DNA from: a virus
Lineage: Duplodnaviria; Heunggongvirae; Uroviricota; Caudoviricetes
Length of the DNA: 24,908 bases
Reading direction: 5' to 3' (one strand)
IMG/VR virus record: IMGVR_UViG_2579778993_000003
Numbering within the stretch: the first letter of the stretch is position 1; every line of letters begins with the position of its first letter. The translations under genes and the position numbers were made by a program. Positions 2,531-14,250 of this stretch are shown here, one piece after another. Below the pieces are notes generated by a model. That model saw only the letters and a program-made list of their open reading frames with translations. It did not search any database and was not told the origin of the DNA.

Positions 2531-4387
2531 TTATGATGATGCTGGTGCATTTATCTCCAGCACCAGACTTTCTATCTCAACGCCATACGCTGCATTTTTG
2601 GTAATATCCGTCAGCGTCAGCGCATTCAGCCCCAGTGTCAGACTGTCTTTTATGACCTGGAATGCCGGGCCAGCCACTCCATTCAGTTTCGGAGTAACCG
2701 TGGCACTGCCGGCGGTGAACACCAGCTCCAGCGTCTGCCAGTCGTTACTGTAATTCCCGAACTCGCCCAACTTTGTGTTTCCTGCTTTCCTGTGATGCAT
2801 CAGATTCAGTTTGCCGTCTGTGGTCTGGGTGAAGAACGACATCAGGAACGGGTTACCAGTCCCGGTCATCGCCACGACGTCAGGTAACGCTACATCGGTA
2901 TACAGATAAATTCCCAGACCGAACTGGTTGTTGGTCAGTGCGCCTGACAGTCGAAACTTACAGCTCAGTCTGCCACCCCGTGTCAGCAGGGAGACTGCGT
3001 CATCCACCGGATGCATCAGGGACCAGGTTTTATTGCTCTGCTTGGTAACCTTAAACACACCATCTTCCAGCGCAACACTGCCGCCGGTGATGGTCCAGCC
3101 CTGCGCAGCAGCCTCTCCGGCTGTCGGCAGCAGGGAGACTGTACGAACGGATGTGTCACCATCAGACGGCCCCGATGGCGTGTCGCCGCCGGGCGAGGGT
3201 TTAATCTCCGGTGCGGTACCGCTGATGAAGGCGCTGGTTCGACCAACTGCGTTCAGAATAGCGGTTGCCAGGCGATCCGAAATAATGCCCCTGCGCGCCC
3301 ATGAACTGAAATGTGTCGGACGATTTGACGATACCCAATTACCATTACTACGGGATTGCGCGCCGTAATAACCTGCATCAGCAATATCCGGGTCTTCTGC
3401 CGGTAAGTTGGTGGGCGTGTTGTTGCCGTTACCGTCGGTCATGAACGGCACAAAGAAAACGTTGTCGCTCTCCCTGTTTTTGTACGCGCCGTAGACGGAG
3501 TCATACTGTGTGCCGTATGTGTTTTTCCAGTAATACGTCGTGTCGCCACAAATCCACGGTACAACTGCAGCACTGCCGCCATGGCACTGCGCCGCCAGCC
3601 CGGCAAGGTCAGCACGGAACTGCTGTACCATTGCAAGAAATGCTGCTGGCTGCTGGGCGTAACTGGCATTCGTCATATCGAATTCCCCCTGCATCCAGCA
3701 TATCGCCAGCAAAACGTTTTTCGGGTTTTTCTGCAATGCTGCCTTCGTGCGGAAAAGCAGATCCTGATATAATGGTTTACCCACACCCCAGCGTGCCGAA
3801 TCCTGGCTGGCCCCCGTGTCCGCACTGAATGTCCCCTCCGCGCCCTGGGTGAATGCCGAACCACCACGACAGCATGGTACCAGCAGGATCCCCGCATTAT
3901 TAGGGATATACGGAAGCAGTTTTTTGGCAATATGTAAGCCCTGTCCGACACAGCCGTACTGCCCTTTGCTCAGGTCAGCCCGGGGATGGTTAATCGTACT
4001 CATATCCTGAACATCATGCAGACAATGGTCAGCAGGAATGATGTCGTTAAATACGCATACTTCACCACCGGGAGTCACTGTGTTACGACGGGCCAGTTGC
4101 TTAATGCGCGGATGGGGCGCATCGTATGAATCCGGAAGCGGAAGCCCTTCACCGTAAGCCATGGCATTGGACTGCCCGGCCAGTACGATGACGTAGTACC
4201 ACTCCGGCTCAGTTGCACCACTGACGACCACATCACCTTCTGCTGCAATCGCCTGCATCAGGGTATAAGGGGTTATGGCCACCGGACTACCAAACGGCTG
4301 CCAGCCCTCTTTCAGTTTATGTGTCAGCTTTTCCGCAAGATCTGACGGCGACGCCGCCCTGACAACATCATAGTGTTTAAATGCCAT
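2531..4387 (-). CDS. Prophage sialate O-acetylesterase-like protein (NanS-p-like; SGNH/SASA hydrolase with extra N- and C-terminal domains), 618 aa
   Basis: Contains the esterase motif LAGQSNAMAYGEG (GQSN catalytic serine block) after an N-terminal ~60-aa domain (MAFKHYDVVRAASPSDLAEKL...), plus a long C-terminal beta-rich region. It sits between the tRNA/stx slot and the holin, the position of NanS-p genes in Stx-type prophages. Confidence 0.7.
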   Translation of the reverse strand: MAFKHYDVVRAASPSDLAEKLTHKLKEGWQPFGSPVAITPYTLMQAIAAEGDVVVSGATEPEWYYVIVLAGQSNAMAYGEGLPLPDSYDAPHPRIKQLARRNTVTPGGEVCVFNDIIPADHCLHDVQDMSTINHPRADLSKGQYGCVGQGLHIAKKLLPYIPNNAGILLVPCCRGGSAFTQGAEGTFSADTGASQDSARWGVGKPLYQDLLFRTKAALQKNPKNVLLAICWMQGEFDMTNASYAQQPAAFLAMVQQFRADLAGLAAQCHGGSAAVVPWICGDTTYYWKNTYGTQYDSVYGAYKNRESDNVFFVPFMTDGNGNNTPTNLPAEDPDIADAGYYGAQSRSNGNWVSSNRPTHFSSWARRGIISDRLATAILNAVGRTSAFISGTAPEIKPSPGGDTPSGPSDGDTSVRTVSLLPTAGEAAAQGWTITGGSVALEDGVFKVTKQSNKTWSLMHPVDDAVSLLTRGGRLSCKFRLSGALTNNQFGLGIYLYTDVALPDVVAMTGTGNPFLMSFFTQTTDGKLNLMHHRKAGNTKLGEFGNYSNDWQTLELVFTAGSATVTPKLNGVAGPAFQVIKDSLTLGLNALTLTDITKNAAYGVEIESLVLEINAPASS

Positions 4388-5362: not shown

Positions 5363-5439
5363 TGGCGCGTTGTACTGGATTCGAACCAGTGACCGATTGC
5401 TTAGAAGGCAATTGCTCTGTCCGGCTGAGCTAACAACGC
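5363..5439 (-). tRNA. tRNA-Arg (anticodon UCU)
   Basis: Manual cloverleaf on the minus strand: acceptor GCGTTGT/ACAACGC, D-stem GCTC/GAGC, anticodon stem ATTGC/GCAAT with loop CTTCTAA, T-arm ACTGG-TTCGAAT-CCAGT, discriminator G and encoded CCA. All stems perfect; 77 nt. Confidence 0.9.
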
Positions 5440-5452
5440 AGGATACAGATAA

Positions 5453-5529
5453 TGGACCGCCTTCGGGGACCCGAACTCCGCGCAACCAGCTTCGAAGGCT
5501 GGCGCTCTTTCCTGATGAGCTAATGGCGG
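5453..5529 (-). tRNA. Putative tRNA-Arg (anticodon UCG), slightly degenerate
   Basis: Cloverleaf fits with D-stem GCTC/GAGC, anticodon stem CCAGC/GCTGG with loop CTTCGAA, and encoded CCA. There is one mismatch in the acceptor stem (A-A), one in the T-stem (A-C), and an atypical T-loop TTCGGGT, so it may be a diverged or pseudo tRNA. Confidence 0.55.
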
Positions 5530-5536
5530 TATGTGA

Positions 5537-5612
5537 TGGTGGCCCTTGCTGGATTTGAACCAGCGACCTGGCGATTATGAGTCGCTCGCTCTCACCACTG
5601 AGCTAAAGGGCC
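5537..5612 (-). tRNA. tRNA with CAU anticodon (Met by anticodon; resembles the Ile2/lysidine-type ileX/ileZ class)
   Basis: Minus-strand sequence GGCCCTTTAGCTCAGTGGTGAGAGCGAGCGACTCATAATCGCCAGGTCGCTGGTTCAAATCCAGCAAGGGCCACCA folds as a 76-nt cloverleaf with one A-C mismatch in the anticodon stem. It closely resembles E. coli ileX as I recall it. Confidence 0.85.
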
Positions 5613-9544: not shown

Positions 9545-9823
9545 TTACCTCCAGATCCGTTGCTGGAATGTGCGGGACGGACGCGCTGGCCGTTCTGAGT
9601 AAGGGAGCCTGACGGAGATTATCCAGTGACGGTAGTCGAGGCTAAGGGCTTTTTTAACCTCGCATCCGCGCCCGCGGTAACACTGAATGAGCCATTCAGC
9701 CTGTTCTTCGGTGCAGGGGTCGTGCTGATACCAGTCAGATTTGAATGCATGAGAACGCCGCCCGTGCCTGCTGGCAGGGGCGGCAGAGTTATCCGAATTG
9801 TAAAATTTGGTATCGTGCGCCAT
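9545..9823 (-). CDS. Hypothetical nin-region protein (92 aa)
   Basis: ATG at 9821-9823; the stop abuts the start of the DUF968 gene. Four Cys residues; no motif recognised. Confidence 0.4.
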   Translation of the reverse strand: MAHDTKFYNSDNSAAPASRHGRRSHAFKSDWYQHDPCTEEQAEWLIQCYRGRGCEVKKALSLDYRHWIISVRLPYSERPARPSRTFQQRIWR

Positions 9824-10090
9824 CTGTTTTCTCTGCTGGCGCAGCAGGTGCCAGTTGTTCAGGCTGACGTATGAAGTATAAATAAACTGGCTCCAGTGTA
9901 AAGCCCCACCTTAATGGAATAAAAACCAAACAACAGATTGCTGGGATAAAAATACAACGCTTATTATTAAAAGCGGTTAGATAAATTAAATTTTAATGTT
10001 ATGCAAATCTGCCAGATTAGCATAATATTTCATTTGAAAACCGCTGAAATAACAATCTTATCGGGATTAATCATATTAAGGTGAGTAAAT

Positions 10091-10177
10091 ATGGAAAACA
10101 ACAAATCTGCACATTACGCTCCTTTTTTATCTGTAATACTTTTTGTATTTTGTTGTGTATGGGCGGTATTTTTATAA
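10091..10177 (+). CDS. Candidate small hydrophobic peptide (28 aa: MENNKSAHYAPFLSVILFVFCCVWAVFL), below the ORF-track length cut-off
   Basis: ATG at 10091 preceded by AAGGTGA (10078-10084) with a 6-nt spacer. A short polar head is followed by a single hydrophobic helix-length segment, and the stop TAA (10175-10177) lies 18 nt before a strong bidirectional terminator. It is convergent with the protease gene. Confidence 0.3.
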   Translation: MENNKSAHYAPFLSVILFVFCCVWAVFL

Positions 10178-10194
10178 AACACACCCACAAATAA

Positions 10195-10224
10195 ATCAAA
10201 CCCGCTACAGCGGGTTTGATTTAT
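10195..10224. terminator. Bidirectional intrinsic terminator shared by the small plus-strand ORF and the protease/ATPase operon
   Basis: Perfect 10-bp stem TCAAACCCGC (10196-10205), loop tacag, GCGGGTTTGA (10211-10220), with T/A-rich runs on both sides. Confidence 0.65.
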
Positions 10225-10231
10225 ATAGTTG

Positions 10232-12496
10232 TTATACGGAAACTGGCACACGAGCAGGCAATGGATAGTGAGCCCAGTTATTAGCATTTAAAGCTCTTAC
10301 GCCATCAGCATAAACTTGTGTTTTTCCATCTAATGATTTTAAAGTTACTACAATAGTTACAGGTAAAGGCTCCATTAAGGCCGGTTCATTCGCTCTCAAC
10401 GTTGTTTTAGCTTGAAGAGCCCAGTTACCCGAAGTAATTCCTTTATTAAATGCCTTGCGATGAATTTTTACTGGTGACCACTTTCCACCATGCTCAATTT
10501 GAGCTCTCTCATATCCAGATTGACCGTTTTCTCCTTCCATAGGTACTTTTCCTTTTATAGTATTATTCTCAATTAAGCCAAAACTTAGCTCTACGTTCGC
10601 GCGAACATATTCACTGCCGGCATTAGGGTTCAGTGGTGGTGCATATGCAGCAGTAATTACAATCTCACCTTTAAATTTTCCATTTTGAATAAGTGCCGAT
10701 GGTATGGGATAGTTTTCCTTTCTCCACCTCACCCCAGGAACCAAGAATGTTTGGAAAATCAGAGTAAACCTATCATCACTATCATATAAGGTCTCAATAA
10801 CCTCATTAGGAATTCCCGCTCCCAAATAGCGTCTTTCACTTGGCGAGTAATCAGGAGAAGATAATTGAGCGGAATGAATTAATAATGCTTTAATCAATGA
10901 TGGTGAAACATTAAAGTCTGAATTAGTGGCTATTCTCTGCCATGTATGCGCAGCTAAACTTGCCACAATTGGAGCAGCAAAACTAGTACCAAAATTAGAG
11001 CAAAGCCTATTATCTGGCCCTACGACCTTTAAACTGCTTGCTCCTACATTCCAAGGTCTATGAACCCCACCGCCAGCATGGATTATATCTGGCTTTGGAG
11101 TAAATACAGGCCCAGGGCCACGACGAGTATATGGTGTCGGTGTTCCAATTTCACTTAAAGCATCATTAGCTTCCATATGAGAAACTGAACCAACTGTTAG
11201 TGCTCGGACTGACTCTCCAGGAGAGGAAATTAAATCAGCACCTCCAAGCGGATCAGGATTTGGCCATGTACGTATAGGTTCATCTACATAATTACCTGCA
11301 GCAACTACAAACAAAATACCAAATTTATCGCTGAGCCGATCTAACTCCATCGCAAAATCACTAAACATCTGCTCATTACATGGTCCGCCTCCCAAAGATA
11401 AATTCCAGACTTTTATATCTGGTCTTTTATTTACAGCATCTGCTAGCCTCAGAATTAAATCTGATATATAAGATCCATTTTCATCTAAAGCACAAACATC
11501 ATGGATTTTAGATTTTGTATCAGGAATCCATGGATGATTGTCATTTAAAAAATGAGCGCCTGATATCAATGAAGACACCATAGTCCCATGTTCATAACTC
11601 GTATCAGGAGGAATTACGTATGTTTCCCTACTCACTACCCAAGGAGTAATTGTTGCCGCGATGGGGCTTACCCCAGTGTCAAATACAGCAACAATGGGTA
11701 ATTCTTCTGATGGTACGGGAAAGCTATTTGTTTCAATGCCAACAGAATCACTTACACTAACCGGGAATGCTGAATATTTTGGTTCTGGAATTAACGTTCT
11801 TATACCCGGGTAATCAATGAGAATGTCTAATATATATCTATCATTTGGGGATAAATCCATTATCCTTAATAAGGGAAGACCACATTTTGGTCTAATCTCA
11901 TCATATTTAACTCCGTGTTGTTCTAATATAGAAATAACGTTTTCATAGTTGTTGTAAGTTGCATCTTCACCTGTGTACTCAAATAGTCGTACAAGGATGT
12001 TTGATGATTCAAACAAACCATCAGTGCCTCCTGGAACCTTCCTATTCTCATCCCAAGGTTCAATGCGCTCAATCGCGCTTAGATTAGCCAAAATCGCTTT
12101 AATATTCCGATGTAAAATGACTGACTCTAATACGTCAAAACAGCCGGCATGAGCAGCAACCAACATTTCATCTATTTTGGCATGACCGGCATTTTGCAAT
12201 CCAGCCTCTTGAGCAATTTTGTTCGGCCTATGCGTTTTGGCTATTCCCTGGTCTCTTAATTTGAAAACCAAAGTACCCAAGCTTCCAGGGTACTCTGAAA
12301 GTTTGGATTCTAAATAATGTTTACTGGTTGTTAAATTTCTTACTAGCCCTTGTCTATATTCGGCTGTTACATCAACCAATACCTTTGCCCCACCGCCAGC
12401 GTTTACTATTGCACCCAAGTCACTACTGGAAAAAGGGATTCTTAACATTGGGTTTGTAACTTTTGCGTTACTAAACTGTGTACCCCTTCTGCTCAT
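10232..12496 (-). CDS. Subtilisin-like serine protease (peptidase S8) with extra N- and C-terminal domains, 754 aa; protease component of an IetAS-like two-gene system
   Basis: Catalytic residues in subtilisin order: Asp in VAVFDTGVS, His in YEHGTMVSS, oxyanion Asn in VVAAGNY, Ser in GTSFAAPIVAS. ATG at 12494-12496 with a GGAG/AGGAG SD inside the 3' end of the upstream ATPase gene (26-bp overlap). A+T-rich relative to neighbouring prophage genes. Confidence 0.9.
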   Translation of the reverse strand: MSRRGTQFSNAKVTNPMLRIPFSSSDLGAIVNAGGGAKVLVDVTAEYRQGLVRNLTTSKHYLESKLSEYPGSLGTLVFKLRDQGIAKTHRPNKIAQEAGLQNAGHAKIDEMLVAAHAGCFDVLESVILHRNIKAILANLSAIERIEPWDENRKVPGGTDGLFESSNILVRLFEYTGEDATYNNYENVISILEQHGVKYDEIRPKCGLPLLRIMDLSPNDRYILDILIDYPGIRTLIPEPKYSAFPVSVSDSVGIETNSFPVPSEELPIVAVFDTGVSPIAATITPWVVSRETYVIPPDTSYEHGTMVSSLISGAHFLNDNHPWIPDTKSKIHDVCALDENGSYISDLILRLADAVNKRPDIKVWNLSLGGGPCNEQMFSDFAMELDRLSDKFGILFVVAAGNYVDEPIRTWPNPDPLGGADLISSPGESVRALTVGSVSHMEANDALSEIGTPTPYTRRGPGPVFTPKPDIIHAGGGVHRPWNVGASSLKVVGPDNRLCSNFGTSFAAPIVASLAAHTWQRIATNSDFNVSPSLIKALLIHSAQLSSPDYSPSERRYLGAGIPNEVIETLYDSDDRFTLIFQTFLVPGVRWRKENYPIPSALIQNGKFKGEIVITAAYAPPLNPNAGSEYVRANVELSFGLIENNTIKGKVPMEGENGQSGYERAQIEHGGKWSPVKIHRKAFNKGITSGNWALQAKTTLRANEPALMEPLPVTIVVTLKSLDGKTQVYADGVRALNANNWAHYPLPARVPVSV

Positions 12497-13625
12497 ATGC
12501 TCCTGACTCCTTCAGAATGTTTGAAATTACTCTTGATGTAAGTTTGTACAAATTAGCAAGAACTCTGATAGAAAATAATTTTTTATCTTTAGAACGTAAC
12601 CAACGAATTTCATCTTCGTAAGTGCTTAAATTTACACCTTCCATAAGCGATTGCGCAAGATACAAACGCCTATACAATTTATGGTGATTTATCACACTTG
12701 CACCTTCAATAACTGCATCCCTACGTGCATCCAAGCTCACCTGTTCAATTATTGCTCCGGATAATCCCTCCGATTTTCTTGATAAATCACTTAAATCTAG
12801 ATCGCTACATATCATATTCTTTAAACGATTTTTCCAAATTAACTCTCTCTGATGTATGTCAGGCAGAGGCATTGGAATTCTGAAGCTAAATCGCCTCCAG
12901 ATTGCAGGATCCAGAAGTTGCTCATGGTTAGTTGAGGCAATAATTACCGTATCCTCTGATGCCGCATCCATATTCTGCAATAGTGAAATGACAACTCGCT
13001 GAAGCTCACCTATATCTCTCTCATTACCTCTTGCTCCAGCTAAAGCATCAAATTCGTCTAAAAAAAGCACTGATGGCCTCTGCATTACATAATCGAAAAC
13101 CTGTCTAAGATTTTTGCTGGTTTGTCCCAATAAACTACTAATCAAAGTATCGCAACGCACTGTAAGAAGTGGAAAATCTAAGCGGGTAGCGATGTACTTA
13201 GATAACATAGTCTTACCTGTTCCTGGCTTTCCATACACGAGCATACGACTCGGCAATGCTGCATCAGCTTTAACAAACTCATCATAACGTTGAACATTAG
13301 TGATAAACTCTTCAACACGGGTACTGATTGCTGCAGGCAGAAAAATCTCTGAACTGTCTAATTTAGGATAACTGACATCAACAGTGTTGAGTCGACTATC
13401 AATATCTACCGGTAATGAGCCCAGAGATATCCCACCTCCAGCCCTTTGAGCTCCTGCCAACGCCTGGGGAGCTCTAAGCAACCTTTCTCTTATCATTCTG
13501 GCTTGCTTGACCTCCCCTTTTTGTTCGAGCTTATCTGCCAGCAACCCAGCATAATTACTAGCCATCGAAGCATTTGCCTTTGTTGCACCTTCAATGATTT
13601 TTAACACTTCTGATAAATAATCCAT
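12471..13625 (-). CDS. Classic AAA-family ATPase, 384 aa; ATPase component of an IetAS-like two-gene system
   Basis: Walker A GKPGTGKT, Walker B VLFLDEFD, and a second-region-of-homology-like segment ASTNHEQLLDPAIWRRFSF with sensor Asn and Arg fingers. ATG at 13623-13625 preceded by GGGAG with a 6-nt spacer, after an AT-rich ~190-bp leader. Confidence 0.9.
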   Translation of the reverse strand: MDYLSEVLKIIEGATKANASMASNYAGLLADKLEQKGEVKQARMIRERLLRAPQALAGAQRAGGGISLGSLPVDIDSRLNTVDVSYPKLDSSEIFLPAAISTRVEEFITNVQRYDEFVKADAALPSRMLVYGKPGTGKTMLSKYIATRLDFPLLTVRCDTLISSLLGQTSKNLRQVFDYVMQRPSVLFLDEFDALAGARGNERDIGELQRVVISLLQNMDAASEDTVIIASTNHEQLLDPAIWRRFSFRIPMPLPDIHQRELIWKNRLKNMICSDLDLSDLSRKSEGLSGAIIEQVSLDARRDAVIEGASVINHHKLYRRLYLAQSLMEGVNLSTYEDEIRWLRSKDKKLFSIRVLANLYKLTSRVISNILKESGAYEQKGYTV

Positions 13626-13818
13626 TCAACACTCCCACAACAAAAAGCCACAGCAATCAAAAAATGAGCACACAGAATCAAAATACTCTCTAATCGTAAC
13701 GCATTTTGAGATTTTTGATACGTTTTTTTGGGATTATGTAACGCCAAATGGTCATTTTGTGTCAGAAAAATAAATCTTAGTACCGAGAATATGTAGCTTC
13801 CATCCTTCATCGTTCTAT

Positions 13819-14250
13819 TCATCCCTGATCTCCAAGCCTCTCTCGAAAACCATTCTGATAAAACGCCAGCACACGCTGCATAACTTCGCTCTTCCGGCAC
13901 TCGCGACAGATTATGTTCAGACGCCTGTCGTAGCGGCGTATTTCTCCGTCTGGTAATGACCAGATAAGGTCCGGATCAACCACAGATGGTTTCTTCACCT
14001 TTGCCCTGGATAGTTTTTTGCGGGCATTTTGCCAGTCCTTACGAGCCTGTTCAGACGGGAATAACCCGTAACCAGAGTTGTATACATCGCCACTGGCAAC
14101 CAGCTCTCTGGCGAGAACGCTCATCAGATATCTTGTCGCACCTGTCTTGGCTTCCAGTTGCCGTAACGTCTCGCGCCCACTCCGGCGTACTAGCTCAACA
14201 ACCTGCCCTTTAATTTTTTCCCGCTCTTCTTGTGTAAATACTTTTGCCAT
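13819..14250 (-). CDS. Hypothetical prophage protein (143 aa from the ATG at 14248-14250)
   Basis: Strong SD GGAGG 5 nt upstream of the ATG at 14250; the track ORF starts 5 codons earlier. Basic protein with a CxxC pair near the C-terminus; no family recognised. Confidence 0.55.
   Translation of the reverse strand: MAKVFTQEEREKIKGQVVELVRRSGRETLRQLEAKTGATRYLMSVLARELVASGDVYNSGYGLFPSEQARKDWQNARKKLSRAKVKKPSVVDPDLIWSLPDGEIRRYDRRLNIICRECRKSEVMQRVLAFYQNGFRERLGDQG

What the first reader, a model, noticed from the sequence alone, without database searches (positions are those of the whole stretch)
10078..10224. Unannotated 28-codon hydrophobic ORF convergent with the protease gene
A 28-aa ORF (MENNKSAHYAPFLSVILFVFCCVWAVFL) has a strong SD (AAGGTGA, 6-nt spacer) and ends 18 nt before a perfect 10-bp bidirectional terminator. 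It is too short for the ORF track. The single hydrophobic segment resembles small membrane peptides (type I toxins or small regulatory membrane proteins). It sits at the 3' end of the candidate defence operon, so it could be a third, functionally linked component or an independent small toxin.
Basis: partly seen in the sequence, partly recalled or inferred. Interest (0 to 1): 0.55.

Follow-up and report, generated by a model that had tools for sequence, protein, structure and literature searches.

The report
Conserved tiny membrane-peptide ORF beside defence slot
The 28-codon hydrophobic ORF is real and conserved, but it belongs to the backbone of a Rac-type E. coli prophage, at the edge of a slot that holds many different defence cargoes, and is not a third part of the ATPase/protease (IetAS) system; its function is untested.

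Summary
ORF 10091-10177 (+) encodes MENNKSAHYAPFLSVILFVFCCVWAVFL. It has SD AAGGTGA 6 nt upstream and is followed by a perfect 15-bp hairpin (10191-10224). It is the only SD-preceded hydrophobic sORF in the window (P about 0.0006 in shuffles).

The window is a Rac-like lambdoid prophage of E. coli. The ORF sits in a roughly 355-bp intergenic module (9824-10178) found in 1177 of 5426 complete E. coli genomes and never annotated. Only 78 of those genomes carry this IetS.

In the roughly 240 copies I read, the 28-codon frame was intact in every copy read in full. It has no indels, half the diversity of the upstream spacer, and pN/pS 0.36, the lowest of six frames (P about 0.03).

Downstream I found at least 42 different cargoes, including hok, AbiL-like, AbiH, a PD-Lambda-2 component and IS elements. 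Three divergent IetAS loci lack any such ORF. It is therefore a backbone gene at the border of a cargo hotspot.

It is most likely a small inner-membrane peptide expressed from the prophage, and possibly a type I toxin with a cis-antisense RNA. It matches no known family. Expression and toxicity are untested.

The parts
10091..10177 (+). 28-codon ORF including its stop (MENNKSAHYAPFLSVILFVFCCVWAVFL). Residues 1-9 are polar. Residues 10-28 form one hydrophobic segment that runs to the C-terminus.
   Evidence: Translation. The frame is intact in every homologous copy read in full. There are no gap columns, and diversity is half that of the upstream spacer. pN/pS is 0.36, the lowest of six frames. 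Hydrophobicity retention has P about 0.05 and the joint test P = 0.016.
10078..10084 (+). Shine-Dalgarno AAGGTGA, 6 nt before the ATG.
   Evidence: It is kept in clades A and B but weakened to AAAGTGA or AAAGCGA in clade C, which is about a quarter of copies. In the MFE fold it pairs with GCUCCUUU of codons 10-12.
10191..10224 (.). Perfect 15-bp hairpin acting as a bidirectional terminator. It is primarily the terminator of the cargo gene (IetS here).
   Evidence: It is homologous to the terminator of a convergent hok gene in most related loci.
9824..10178 (.). Conserved intergenic backbone module. It runs from the start codon of the first nin-side gene to the stop codon of the small ORF. In some relatives homology continues to 10216, through the terminator.
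   Evidence: In most genomes homology ends at query position 255/256, which is the ORF stop.
10070..10097 (-). Promoter-like site TTTCCA-16-TATGAT that overlaps the ORF's start codon. It is a candidate promoter of a cis-antisense or divergent RNA.
   Evidence: A -10-like hexamer is kept at this spacing with different sequences in clades A (TATGAT), C (CATAAT) and B (AATAAT at 15 nt). This is an inference, with no transcript data.
10054..10068 (+). Small hairpin AATCT-TATCG-GGATT just upstream of the SD.
   Evidence: Variants AACCC/GGGTT and AATCC/GGATT are compensatory, but mismatched intermediates are common. Clade C has a different hairpin at the same place. The evidence is weak.
9991..10028 (+). 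Two conserved blocks, TTTTAATGTTATGCAAA and CATAATAT, separated by a variable stretch of about 13 nt. This is a possible unconventional promoter for the ORF.
   Evidence: Alignment. No consensus sigma-70 match on the + strand. Inference only.
9938..9967 (+). Alternative weak promoter-like site TTGCTG-18-TATTAT. It would give a 5' UTR of about 115 nt.
   Evidence: PWM scan. The -35 is not kept in clade B.
9958..9975 (-). Weak hairpin plus T-run, CGCTTTTAATAATAAGCG followed by TTGTATTTTT. This is a tR2-like terminator, or a possible 3' end of the candidate antisense RNA.
   Evidence: In clade B pairing is kept only through G-U pairs valid on the minus-strand RNA.
9875..9902 (-). Strong promoter-like site TTTACA-16-TATACT upstream of the nin-side genes. 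It is invariant across clades.
10217..13854 (-). Variable cargo slot. Here it holds IetS (10232-12496) and IetA (12471-13625).
   Evidence: PGAP names. Pfam AAA and Peptidase_S8. Slot borders from comparison with eight related loci.

Best explanation
The ORF is a genuine, so far unannotated small gene of the Rac-type lambdoid prophage backbone. It is not part of IetAS.

It lies in a conserved intergenic module that forms the nin-proximal border of a highly variable cargo slot between the replication genes and the nin/Q genes. It is read in the opposite direction to the phage early-right operon. It would therefore be expressed from its own promoter in the lysogen (moron-like), when the early operon is repressed, and be opposed by converging transcription during lytic growth.

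Its product is a 28-residue peptide with a short polar N-terminus and a single hydrophobic helix that runs to the C-terminus, so it should insert into the inner membrane and act there.

Shown:
- the ORF, its SD and the terminator;
- conservation of the open frame and of hydrophobicity;
- a modest purifying-selection signal;
- linkage to the backbone rather than to the cargo.

Inferred:
- transcription, translation and membrane insertion;
- expression specific to the lysogen;
- any phenotype.
For: - ORF plus a 6-mer SD plus a hydrophobic helix is unique in the window. It is not expected by chance (P = 0.0006).
- The element is present in 1177 of 5426 E. coli genomes, and homology ends at the ORF's stop codon.
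- The frame was intact in every copy read in full in each sample:
  - 140 of 140 loci fetched with an anchor outside the ORF;
  - 46 of 46 element-bearing loci fetched through the neighbouring DUF1367 gene;
  - 73 of 73 metagenome copies, where codons 1-10 were unconstrained by the pattern.
- There are no indels in the ORF, against many in the upstream spacer. ORF diversity is 0.08 against 0.16 upstream.
- pN/pS is 0.36, the lowest of six frames, and this is the only frame without stops. P = 0.027 against position shuffles.
- No charged or polar residue ever enters residues 10-28 (P = 0.048). The joint test with the open frame gives P = 0.016.
- Cargo independence: at least 42 downstream contexts; IetS in only 78 genomes; no such ORF beside divergent IetAS loci.
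Against: - No consensus sigma-70 promoter was found on the + strand.
- The SD is weakened to AAAGTGA or AAAGCGA in about a quarter of copies.
- Variable sites by codon position are 6/9/13, not significantly skewed.
- All copies are closely related and confined to Escherichia and Shigella. There are about 22 haplotypes, so the coding tests have little power (P only 0.02-0.05).
- There are no homologues in Pfam, NCBIfam or PHROGs, and the exact sequence is not in the protein collection searched.
- There are no transcript or ribosome-profiling data, and no paper contains the peptide string.
- The start-codon region doubles as the -35 of a minus-strand promoter-like site. That could explain part of the conservation.
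Confidence: 0.55

Rival explanations
1. It is a type I toxin-antitoxin module. The peptide is a membrane-damaging toxin. Its mRNA is kept silent by SD sequestration and by a cis-encoded antisense RNA started at the minus-strand promoter that overlaps the start codon (10097..10070). The RNA would run about 100 nt to the 9958-9975 hairpin. The module would stabilise the prophage or kill infected cells. This is a specific sub-case of the best explanation.
For: - The peptide has the size and architecture of Ibs, ShoB or TisB-type toxins: 28 aa and one hydrophobic helix.
- A face-to-face promoter-like site is kept in three clades with different -10 sequences.
- The predicted fold pairs the SD with GCUCCUUU and the AUG with CAU.
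- The same slot border often carries another type I toxin, hok.
Against: - No Rfam antitoxin RNA family (Sok, IstR, OhsC, Sib, Rdl, OrzO and others) matches, even at E <= 10.
- No toxin family matches.
- The candidate antisense RNA has a weak terminator and z = -1.9 only.
- The clade-B promoter is poor (score 0.3).
- SD pairing with a pyrimidine tract is easy to obtain by chance in a T-rich ORF.
- Toxicity is untested.
Confidence: 0.22
2. The ORF is not translated. The conserved module is regulatory DNA or RNA of the phage backbone: terminators that insulate the nin/Q genes from cargo transcription, promoters for the nin side, and a homology 'linker' used for cargo exchange by recombination. 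On this reading the open frame is a by-product of a conserved T-rich stretch.
For: - The module holds an invariant strong minus-strand promoter-like site (9902..9875), a terminator-like hairpin (9975..9958) and a second promoter-like site over the ATG.
- Homology blocks end exactly at gene borders, as in mosaic lambdoid linkers.
- No + strand promoter was found.
- The SD is degraded in clade C.
- The codon-position skew is not significant.
Against: - It does not explain why 87 nt stay free of indels and stops in all copies, while the adjacent spacer accumulates both.
- It does not explain why pN/pS is lowest in exactly this frame.
- It does not explain why substitutions never introduce a charged residue.
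- It does not explain why a 6-mer SD sits at ideal spacing.
Confidence: 0.28
3. It is a third, functionally linked component of the IetA/IetS defence system.
For: Only adjacency in this window, and in the 78 genomes that carry this IetAS allele in the same prophage slot.
Against: - 1177 genomes carry the ORF element against 78 with this IetS.
- At least 42 other cargoes sit next to the same ORF.
- The IetAS loci at 75%, 51% and 33% identity, in other contexts, have no comparable ORF. In Acidovorax the downstream gap is only 88 nt.
- Opposite strand, own SD.
Confidence: 0.02
4. It is a leader peptide or attenuator that controls downstream + strand genes.
For: An ORF followed closely by a hairpin. 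There are weak sub-threshold Rfam similarities to Phe and Leu leaders (24.9 and 20.7 bits against gathering scores of 55 and 50).
Against: - In the window, and in the hok and IetAS contexts, the next gene is convergent, so there is nothing to attenuate.
- The hairpin belongs to the convergent gene.
- There is no run of regulatory codons conserved across clades.
Confidence: 0.02

Closest known systems
Small hydrophobic type I toxins of enterobacteria (Ibs/Sib, ShoB/OhsC, TisB/IstR-1, Ldr/Rdl, DinQ/AgrB, ZorO/OrzO)
   Same: A peptide under 60 aa with one hydrophobic helix, its own SD, a short transcription unit, a possible face-to-face antisense promoter and predicted SD occlusion.
   Different: No sequence or RNA-family match. 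The antisense RNA is only a promoter-like pattern. Toxicity is unknown. The gene is single-copy, prophage-borne and restricted to Escherichia and Shigella.
Hok/Gef (PF01848), e.g. hokD (relF) next to rem and ydfU (DUF968) in K-12 Qin
   Same: A small membrane peptide gene at the same replication-nin junction of lambdoid prophages. In about 40% of related loci a hok gene lies immediately convergent to this ORF.
   Different: Not homologous. It is 28 aa against about 50 aa, on the opposite strand, with no mok-like overlapping frame and none of the hok mRNA fold elements. K-12 Qin and Rac lack the element.
Small inner-membrane proteins of E. coli found by sORF screens and ribosome profiling (my own recollection of the field, not checked here)
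   Same: Length, single helix, missed by standard annotation.
   Different: Those proteins were shown to be expressed. This ORF has no expression evidence and no homology to them.
Prophage morons and lysogenic-conversion genes (lambda bor and lom, HK97 gp15 superinfection exclusion; my own knowledge)
   Same: A self-contained unit inserted between backbone genes, oriented so that it can be expressed while the lytic operons are repressed.
   Different: It is far smaller, no promoter has been identified, and no phenotype is known. Unlike typical morons, it is the conserved flank of the slot and not the variable cargo.
IetAS (IteA/IteS) two-gene defence system
   Same: Physical neighbour in this window.
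   Different: No co-occurrence outside this one prophage allele.

Membership tests
IetAS defence system (as an extra component) | Co-occurs with IetA/IetS across contexts | tested here: not met
   The element is in 1177 genomes and this IetS in 78. The ORF is absent beside IetAS in L185, L190 and L191. At least 42 other cargoes lie beside the ORF.
IetAS defence system (as an extra component) | Same operon and strand as IetA/IetS | tested here: not met
   The ORF is on the + strand and convergent, separated by a bidirectional terminator.
Type I toxin-antitoxin (generic) | Small (<60 aa) hydrophobic membrane peptide | tested here: met
   28 aa. Residues 10-28 are hydrophobic, with best 17-mer KD 2.88.
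Type I toxin-antitoxin (generic) | Cis- or divergently encoded antisense RNA antitoxin with promoter and terminator | tested here: inconclusive
   The minus-strand promoter-like site over the ATG is kept in clades A and C and is weak in B. The terminator is weak, with fold z = -1.9. No Rfam antitoxin family matches.
Type I toxin-antitoxin (generic) | Toxicity on overexpression, neutralised by the RNA | not testable with these tools
   Needs an induction experiment.
Known toxin families (Hok/Gef PF01848, and the Ibs, Ldr, TisB and ShoB models in Pfam/NCBIfam) | Profile match above threshold | tested here: not met
   No hit even at E <= 10, apart from noise (Sec20, Lp6.6, Rz-like). A true Hok from a related locus scores 82.9 bits.
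Protein-coding gene (generic) | Frame preserved and purifying selection in that frame | tested here: met
   The frame is intact in every copy read in full. pN/pS is 0.36, the lowest of six frames, P = 0.027. There are no indels. The signal is modest because the sequences are close relatives.
Protein-coding gene (generic) | Transcribed and translated | not testable with these tools
   No expression data. No consensus + strand promoter.
Leader peptide / attenuator | Co-directional regulated gene downstream of the hairpin | tested here: not met
   The next gene is convergent here and in the hok contexts. The Rfam leader matches are far below the gathering scores.
Lipoprotein / secreted peptide | Lipobox [LVI][ASTVI][GAS]C with a mature part | tested here: not met
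   Only the rare clade-B allele reads FAGC. Other alleles read VFCC, VLCC or FACC, and only 7 residues would remain after cleavage.

The most novel reading that the evidence does not exclude
The ORF and the promoter-like site facing it form a previously undescribed type I toxin/antisense pair that is a fixed part of the hotspot border. It would act as a border guard. In the lysogen the peptide is silenced. When early-right or cargo transcription, or recombination at the slot, disturbs the balance, the membrane peptide is made and arrests the cell. That would link prophage induction or superinfection to an abortive response and stabilise the cargo slot.
Probability: 0.1. Interest if true: 0.55.

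Novelty: new member of a known kind. Interest (0 to 1): 0.3.

Why it matters
- If translated, this is an unannotated small membrane protein carried by about a fifth of complete E. coli genomes. It is a candidate toxin or lysogenic-conversion factor that standard pipelines miss because it falls below their length cut-off.
- The conserved ORF element on one side, and the DUF977 gene on the other, give clean anchors for a lambdoid (Rac-type) cargo slot. That slot holds IetAS, hok, AbiL-like, AbiH, a PD-Lambda-2 component and many uncharacterised genes, so the anchors can be used to mine new defence systems.
- It removes a false lead for IetAS: the system remains a two-gene system.

Tried and rejected
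- The exact sequence is not in the 15-billion-protein collection.
- tblastn against phages and plasmids found only E. coli copies.
- Pfam, NCBIfam and PHROGs gave only noise.
- Rfam at E <= 10 gave only sub-threshold terminator-driven hits: NrrF, Phe and Leu leaders, MicC.
- A literature search for the peptide strings found nothing. Searches on Rac hotspots and IetAS gave nothing specific.
- K-12 Rac and Qin were checked as possible annotated homologues. Both lack the element.
- A search for diverged family members with an alternative Pro codon found none in metagenomes or IMG/VR.
- Covariation in the 5' hairpin and in a long-range GCGGTT/AACCGC pairing was examined by eye and was not convincing.
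- One apparent truncated allele (MENNKSA) was most likely a locus cut by the end of the fetched sequence: no allele with an internal stop was found on re-checking.
- A lipoprotein-signal reading was rejected (and the alleles).

Full report
**1. The observation**

Positions 10091-10177 (+) read ATG...TAA and translate to MENNKSAHYAPFLSVILFVFCCVWAVFL. AAGGTGA lies at 10078-10084, six bases before the ATG.

Thirteen bases after the stop begins a perfect 15-bp stem: 10191-10205 pairs with 10210-10224, with loop TACA. Its GC core, AAACCCGC/GCGGGTTT, has T-rich tails on both strands. The stem ends 7 nt from the stop of the 754-aa S8 peptidase gene (10232-12496, minus strand).

I scanned the whole window on both strands for ATG ORFs of 20-60 aa. 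I required a 6-mer match to the anti-SD complement at 4-16 nt upstream and a hydrophobic 17-mer. This ORF is the only hit. In 5000 shuffles of the 408-nt intergenic region such an ORF arose with P = 0.0006.

**2. Where the window comes from**

The region is identical to the chromosome of E. coli AR_0069. PGAP annotates a lambdoid, Rac-like prophage there. On the minus strand of the window the order is:
- ydaS/T/U/V-like immunity and replication genes, then DUF1627 and DUF977;
- IteA (anti-phage ATPase) and IteS (S8 anti-phage peptidase);
- a gap with no annotation;
- a 92-aa hypothetical protein, DUF968, RusA, and the Q-like antiterminator;
- the lysis genes.

Pfam confirms AAA, Peptidase_S8, DUF968 and DUF977. 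The small ORF lies in the unannotated gap and is read against the direction of the phage early-right operon.

**3. The ORF belongs to a conserved backbone module, not to the cargo**

A 267-nt query (9924-10190) matches 1177 of 5426 complete E. coli genomes. No feature is annotated under any of 60 sampled matches. In most genomes homology stops at query position 255/256, which is the stop codon of the ORF. The 3' end of this IetS is found in only 78 genomes.

Alignment with induced phages vB_EcoS-683R6 and -666R9 defines the module.
- It starts right at the start codon of the first nin-side gene. That gene is the 92-aa ORF here and a DUF1367 gene in those phages.
- It ends at the ORF's stop.
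- In 666R9 the module is only about 75% identical, and everything to the right is different. It still contains a 28-codon ORF, MENNNYAHLAPFLSVILFAGCFIWALFL, with the same start, stop and SD.

Comparison with eight related loci puts the variable slot at about 10217-13854 in window coordinates. That is from the terminator to the last codons of the DUF977 gene.

Among 129 loci with enough downstream sequence there are at least 42 different contents within 1.2 kb. IetAS accounts for 15. Other contents include:
- an AbiL-like pair, AbiH, and a PD-Lambda-2 component;
- IS elements, a KilA-N protein, and an MFS transporter.

In about 40% of loci a Hok/Gef gene (PF01848, 82.9 bits) lies convergent to the small ORF. 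The hok terminator reads AACCCGCTTCGGCGGGTTTATTTTAT on the minus strand. It sits about 20 nt after the small ORF's stop and is homologous to the window's hairpin. The 'terminator of the small ORF' is therefore primarily the cargo's terminator.

**4. IetAS elsewhere**

IetS alleles at 99% identity or more are all in this same slot. Three divergent loci show no comparable convergent, SD-preceded hydrophobic sORF:
- a 75%-identical IetS in another IMG/VR contig (L185);
- IteAS on an Acidovorax plasmid (51%), where the downstream gap is only 88 nt;
- IteAS on a Dongshaea plasmid (33%).

The 'third component' reading is therefore rejected.

**5. Is it a gene?**

Copies were collected in four ways:
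- (a) a pattern on the SD and start;
- (b) a pattern on an upstream block outside the ORF: 140 loci, all with an intact 28-codon frame;
- (c) the neighbouring DUF1367 gene: 80 loci, of which 46 carry the element, all intact, and 34 carry other upstream modules;
- (d) a protein-level degenerate pattern over codons 11 to the stop in metagenomes: 73 copies read in full, all keeping the ATG and open codons 1-10.

No disrupted allele was seen. One apparent truncation was most likely a locus cut by the end of the fetched sequence, since no allele with an internal stop was found on re-checking.

There are about 22 nucleotide haplotypes and about 19 peptide variants, in three main clades plus a rare fourth allele group (MGNNK...) seen only in metagenome copies.

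| Test | Result |
|---|---|
| Gap columns in the ORF | none, against many in the spacer |
| Mean pairwise diversity, ORF vs 190 nt upstream | 0.08 vs 0.16 |
| Variable columns, ORF vs upstream | 33% vs 75% |
| pN/pS in the ORF frame | 0.36, lowest of six frames, and the only frame without stops |
| pN/pS vs 1500 position shuffles | P = 0.027 |
| All alleles stay open | P = 0.12 |
| No charged or polar residue enters residues 10-28 | P = 0.048 |
| Joint (open frame and hydrophobic) | P = 0.016 |

Against coding:
- variable sites by codon position are 6/9/13, not significant;
- clade C has a weakened SD, AAAGTGA or AAAGCGA;
- no consensus sigma-70 promoter is found on the + strand.

The best + strand promoter candidates are TTGCTG-18-TATTAT (9938-9967, clade A only) and a pair of conserved blocks (9991-10007 and 10021-10028) separated by a variable spacer.

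The family is narrow. It occurs only in Escherichia and Shigella. No copy uses another proline codon in 241 million metagenome records or in IMG/VR. I put the probability that it is a translated gene at roughly 0.6-0.7.

**6. What it might do**

The peptide has nine polar residues followed by a 19-residue hydrophobic stretch that ends the protein. The invariant parts are MENN, H8, P11, L13-S14, I16-L17-F18, W24-A25 and F27-L28. That is the build of small inner-membrane peptides.

Its orientation, antisense to the early-right operon, is that of a lysogen-expressed moron. So is its position, between the cargo's terminator and a terminator-like hairpin on the nin side (9975..9958).

Three features recall type I toxin loci:
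- A minus-strand promoter-like site, TTTCCA-16-TATGAT, overlaps the start codon (10097..10070). A -10-like hexamer is kept at that spacing with different sequences in clade A (TATGAT), clade C (CATAAT) and, weakly, clade B (AATAAT at 15 nt). The chance of one such hexamer per clade is about 0.09.
- The predicted mRNA fold pairs the SD with GCUCCUUU (codons 10-12) and the AUG with CAU.
- Hok toxins frequent the same junction.

None of this is decisive. The candidate antisense RNA folds weakly (z = -1.9), and no Rfam antitoxin family matches. SD pairing with a pyrimidine tract is cheap in a T-rich ORF. I therefore treat the toxin model as a sub-hypothesis (about 0.2) of the more general 'small membrane peptide of the prophage backbone'.

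**7. The main rival**

The main rival is that the module is purely regulatory. It contains an invariant strong promoter-like site for the nin side (TTTACA-16-TATACT, 9902..9875), terminator-like hairpins, and sharp homology borders typical of lambdoid mosaic junctions.

That would explain conservation of parts of the module. It does not explain the indel-free, stop-free, hydrophobicity-preserving evolution of exactly these 87 nt, nor the frame-specific pN/pS.

**8. Comparison with known systems, and novelty**

It works like, and may be, a small membrane peptide or type I toxin. It is not a member of Hok/Gef, Ibs, Ldr, TisB or any profiled family, and it is not part of IetAS.

It is best filed as a new, unannotated member of the known kind 'prophage-encoded small hydrophobic ORF'. 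Specialist surprise would be low. Two results have practical value. The finding is uncoupled from IetAS. The ORF element and DUF977 are identified as conserved flanks of a rich Rac-type cargo slot.

Noticed in passing
window 9875-9902 (-): A strong promoter-like site, TTTACA-16-TATACT, lies about 45 nt upstream of the first nin-side gene. It is invariant in all clades of the module, even where the downstream gene differs (92-aa ORF here, DUF1367 elsewhere). A constitutive promoter in front of the nin/Q genes would be unusual for a lambdoid prophage.
   Followed up: partly
related loci, e.g. L009, L012, L132 (first 300 nt after the small ORF); window 10191-10224: In about 40% of related prophages a Hok/Gef gene, with a mok-like overlapping frame and structured 3' UTR, lies convergent to the small ORF. 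The window's IetS terminator hairpin is homologous to that hok terminator. This suggests IetAS replaced a hok-containing cargo but kept its terminator.
   Followed up: partly
window ~10217-13854 and homologous slots in L002-L170: The interval between the small-ORF element and the 3' end of the DUF977 gene is a hypervariable cargo slot, with at least 42 contents in 129 loci. Contents include IetAS, an AbiL-like pair, AbiH, a PD-Lambda-2 component, IS elements, an MFS transporter with a gamma-glutamylcyclotransferase-like gene, and several proteins with no PADLOC match.
   Followed up: partly
window 10070-10097 (-): A promoter-like site overlaps the small ORF's start codon. Its -10 hexamer is kept at 16-nt spacing with different sequences in different clades (TATGAT, CATAAT, TATTCT, TATTAT). 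It is a candidate antisense or nin-directed promoter.
   Followed up: partly
window 9545-9823 (-) and K-12 Qin (L170 4307-4602): The 92-aa hypothetical ORF next to DUF968 has an 82%-identical nucleotide match in an unannotated gap between ydfU and rem in E. coli K-12 Qin.
   Followed up: no
window 5363-5612 (-): ARAGORN predicts three prophage tRNA genes: Arg-tct, Arg-tcg and Met-cat. PGAP lists only tRNA-Arg and tRNA-Ile in the corresponding stretch of the AR_0069 record. I did not map the two sets onto each other. The Met-cat and tRNA-Ile calls may be the same gene (a lysidine-modified CAU anticodon).
   Followed up: no
window 13601-13900 (-): A 99-codon GTG ORF overlaps the IetA start and the slot border. 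It has no Pfam match and PGAP does not annotate it. Phage 683R6's record calls the equivalent stretch a 'kinase fragment'.
   Followed up: no
L127 (E. coli 3PT) 2975-3898: An IS5 element is inserted into the module just upstream of the small ORF's SD. The ORF itself is left intact, which makes this a natural test case for promoter dependence.
   Followed up: no
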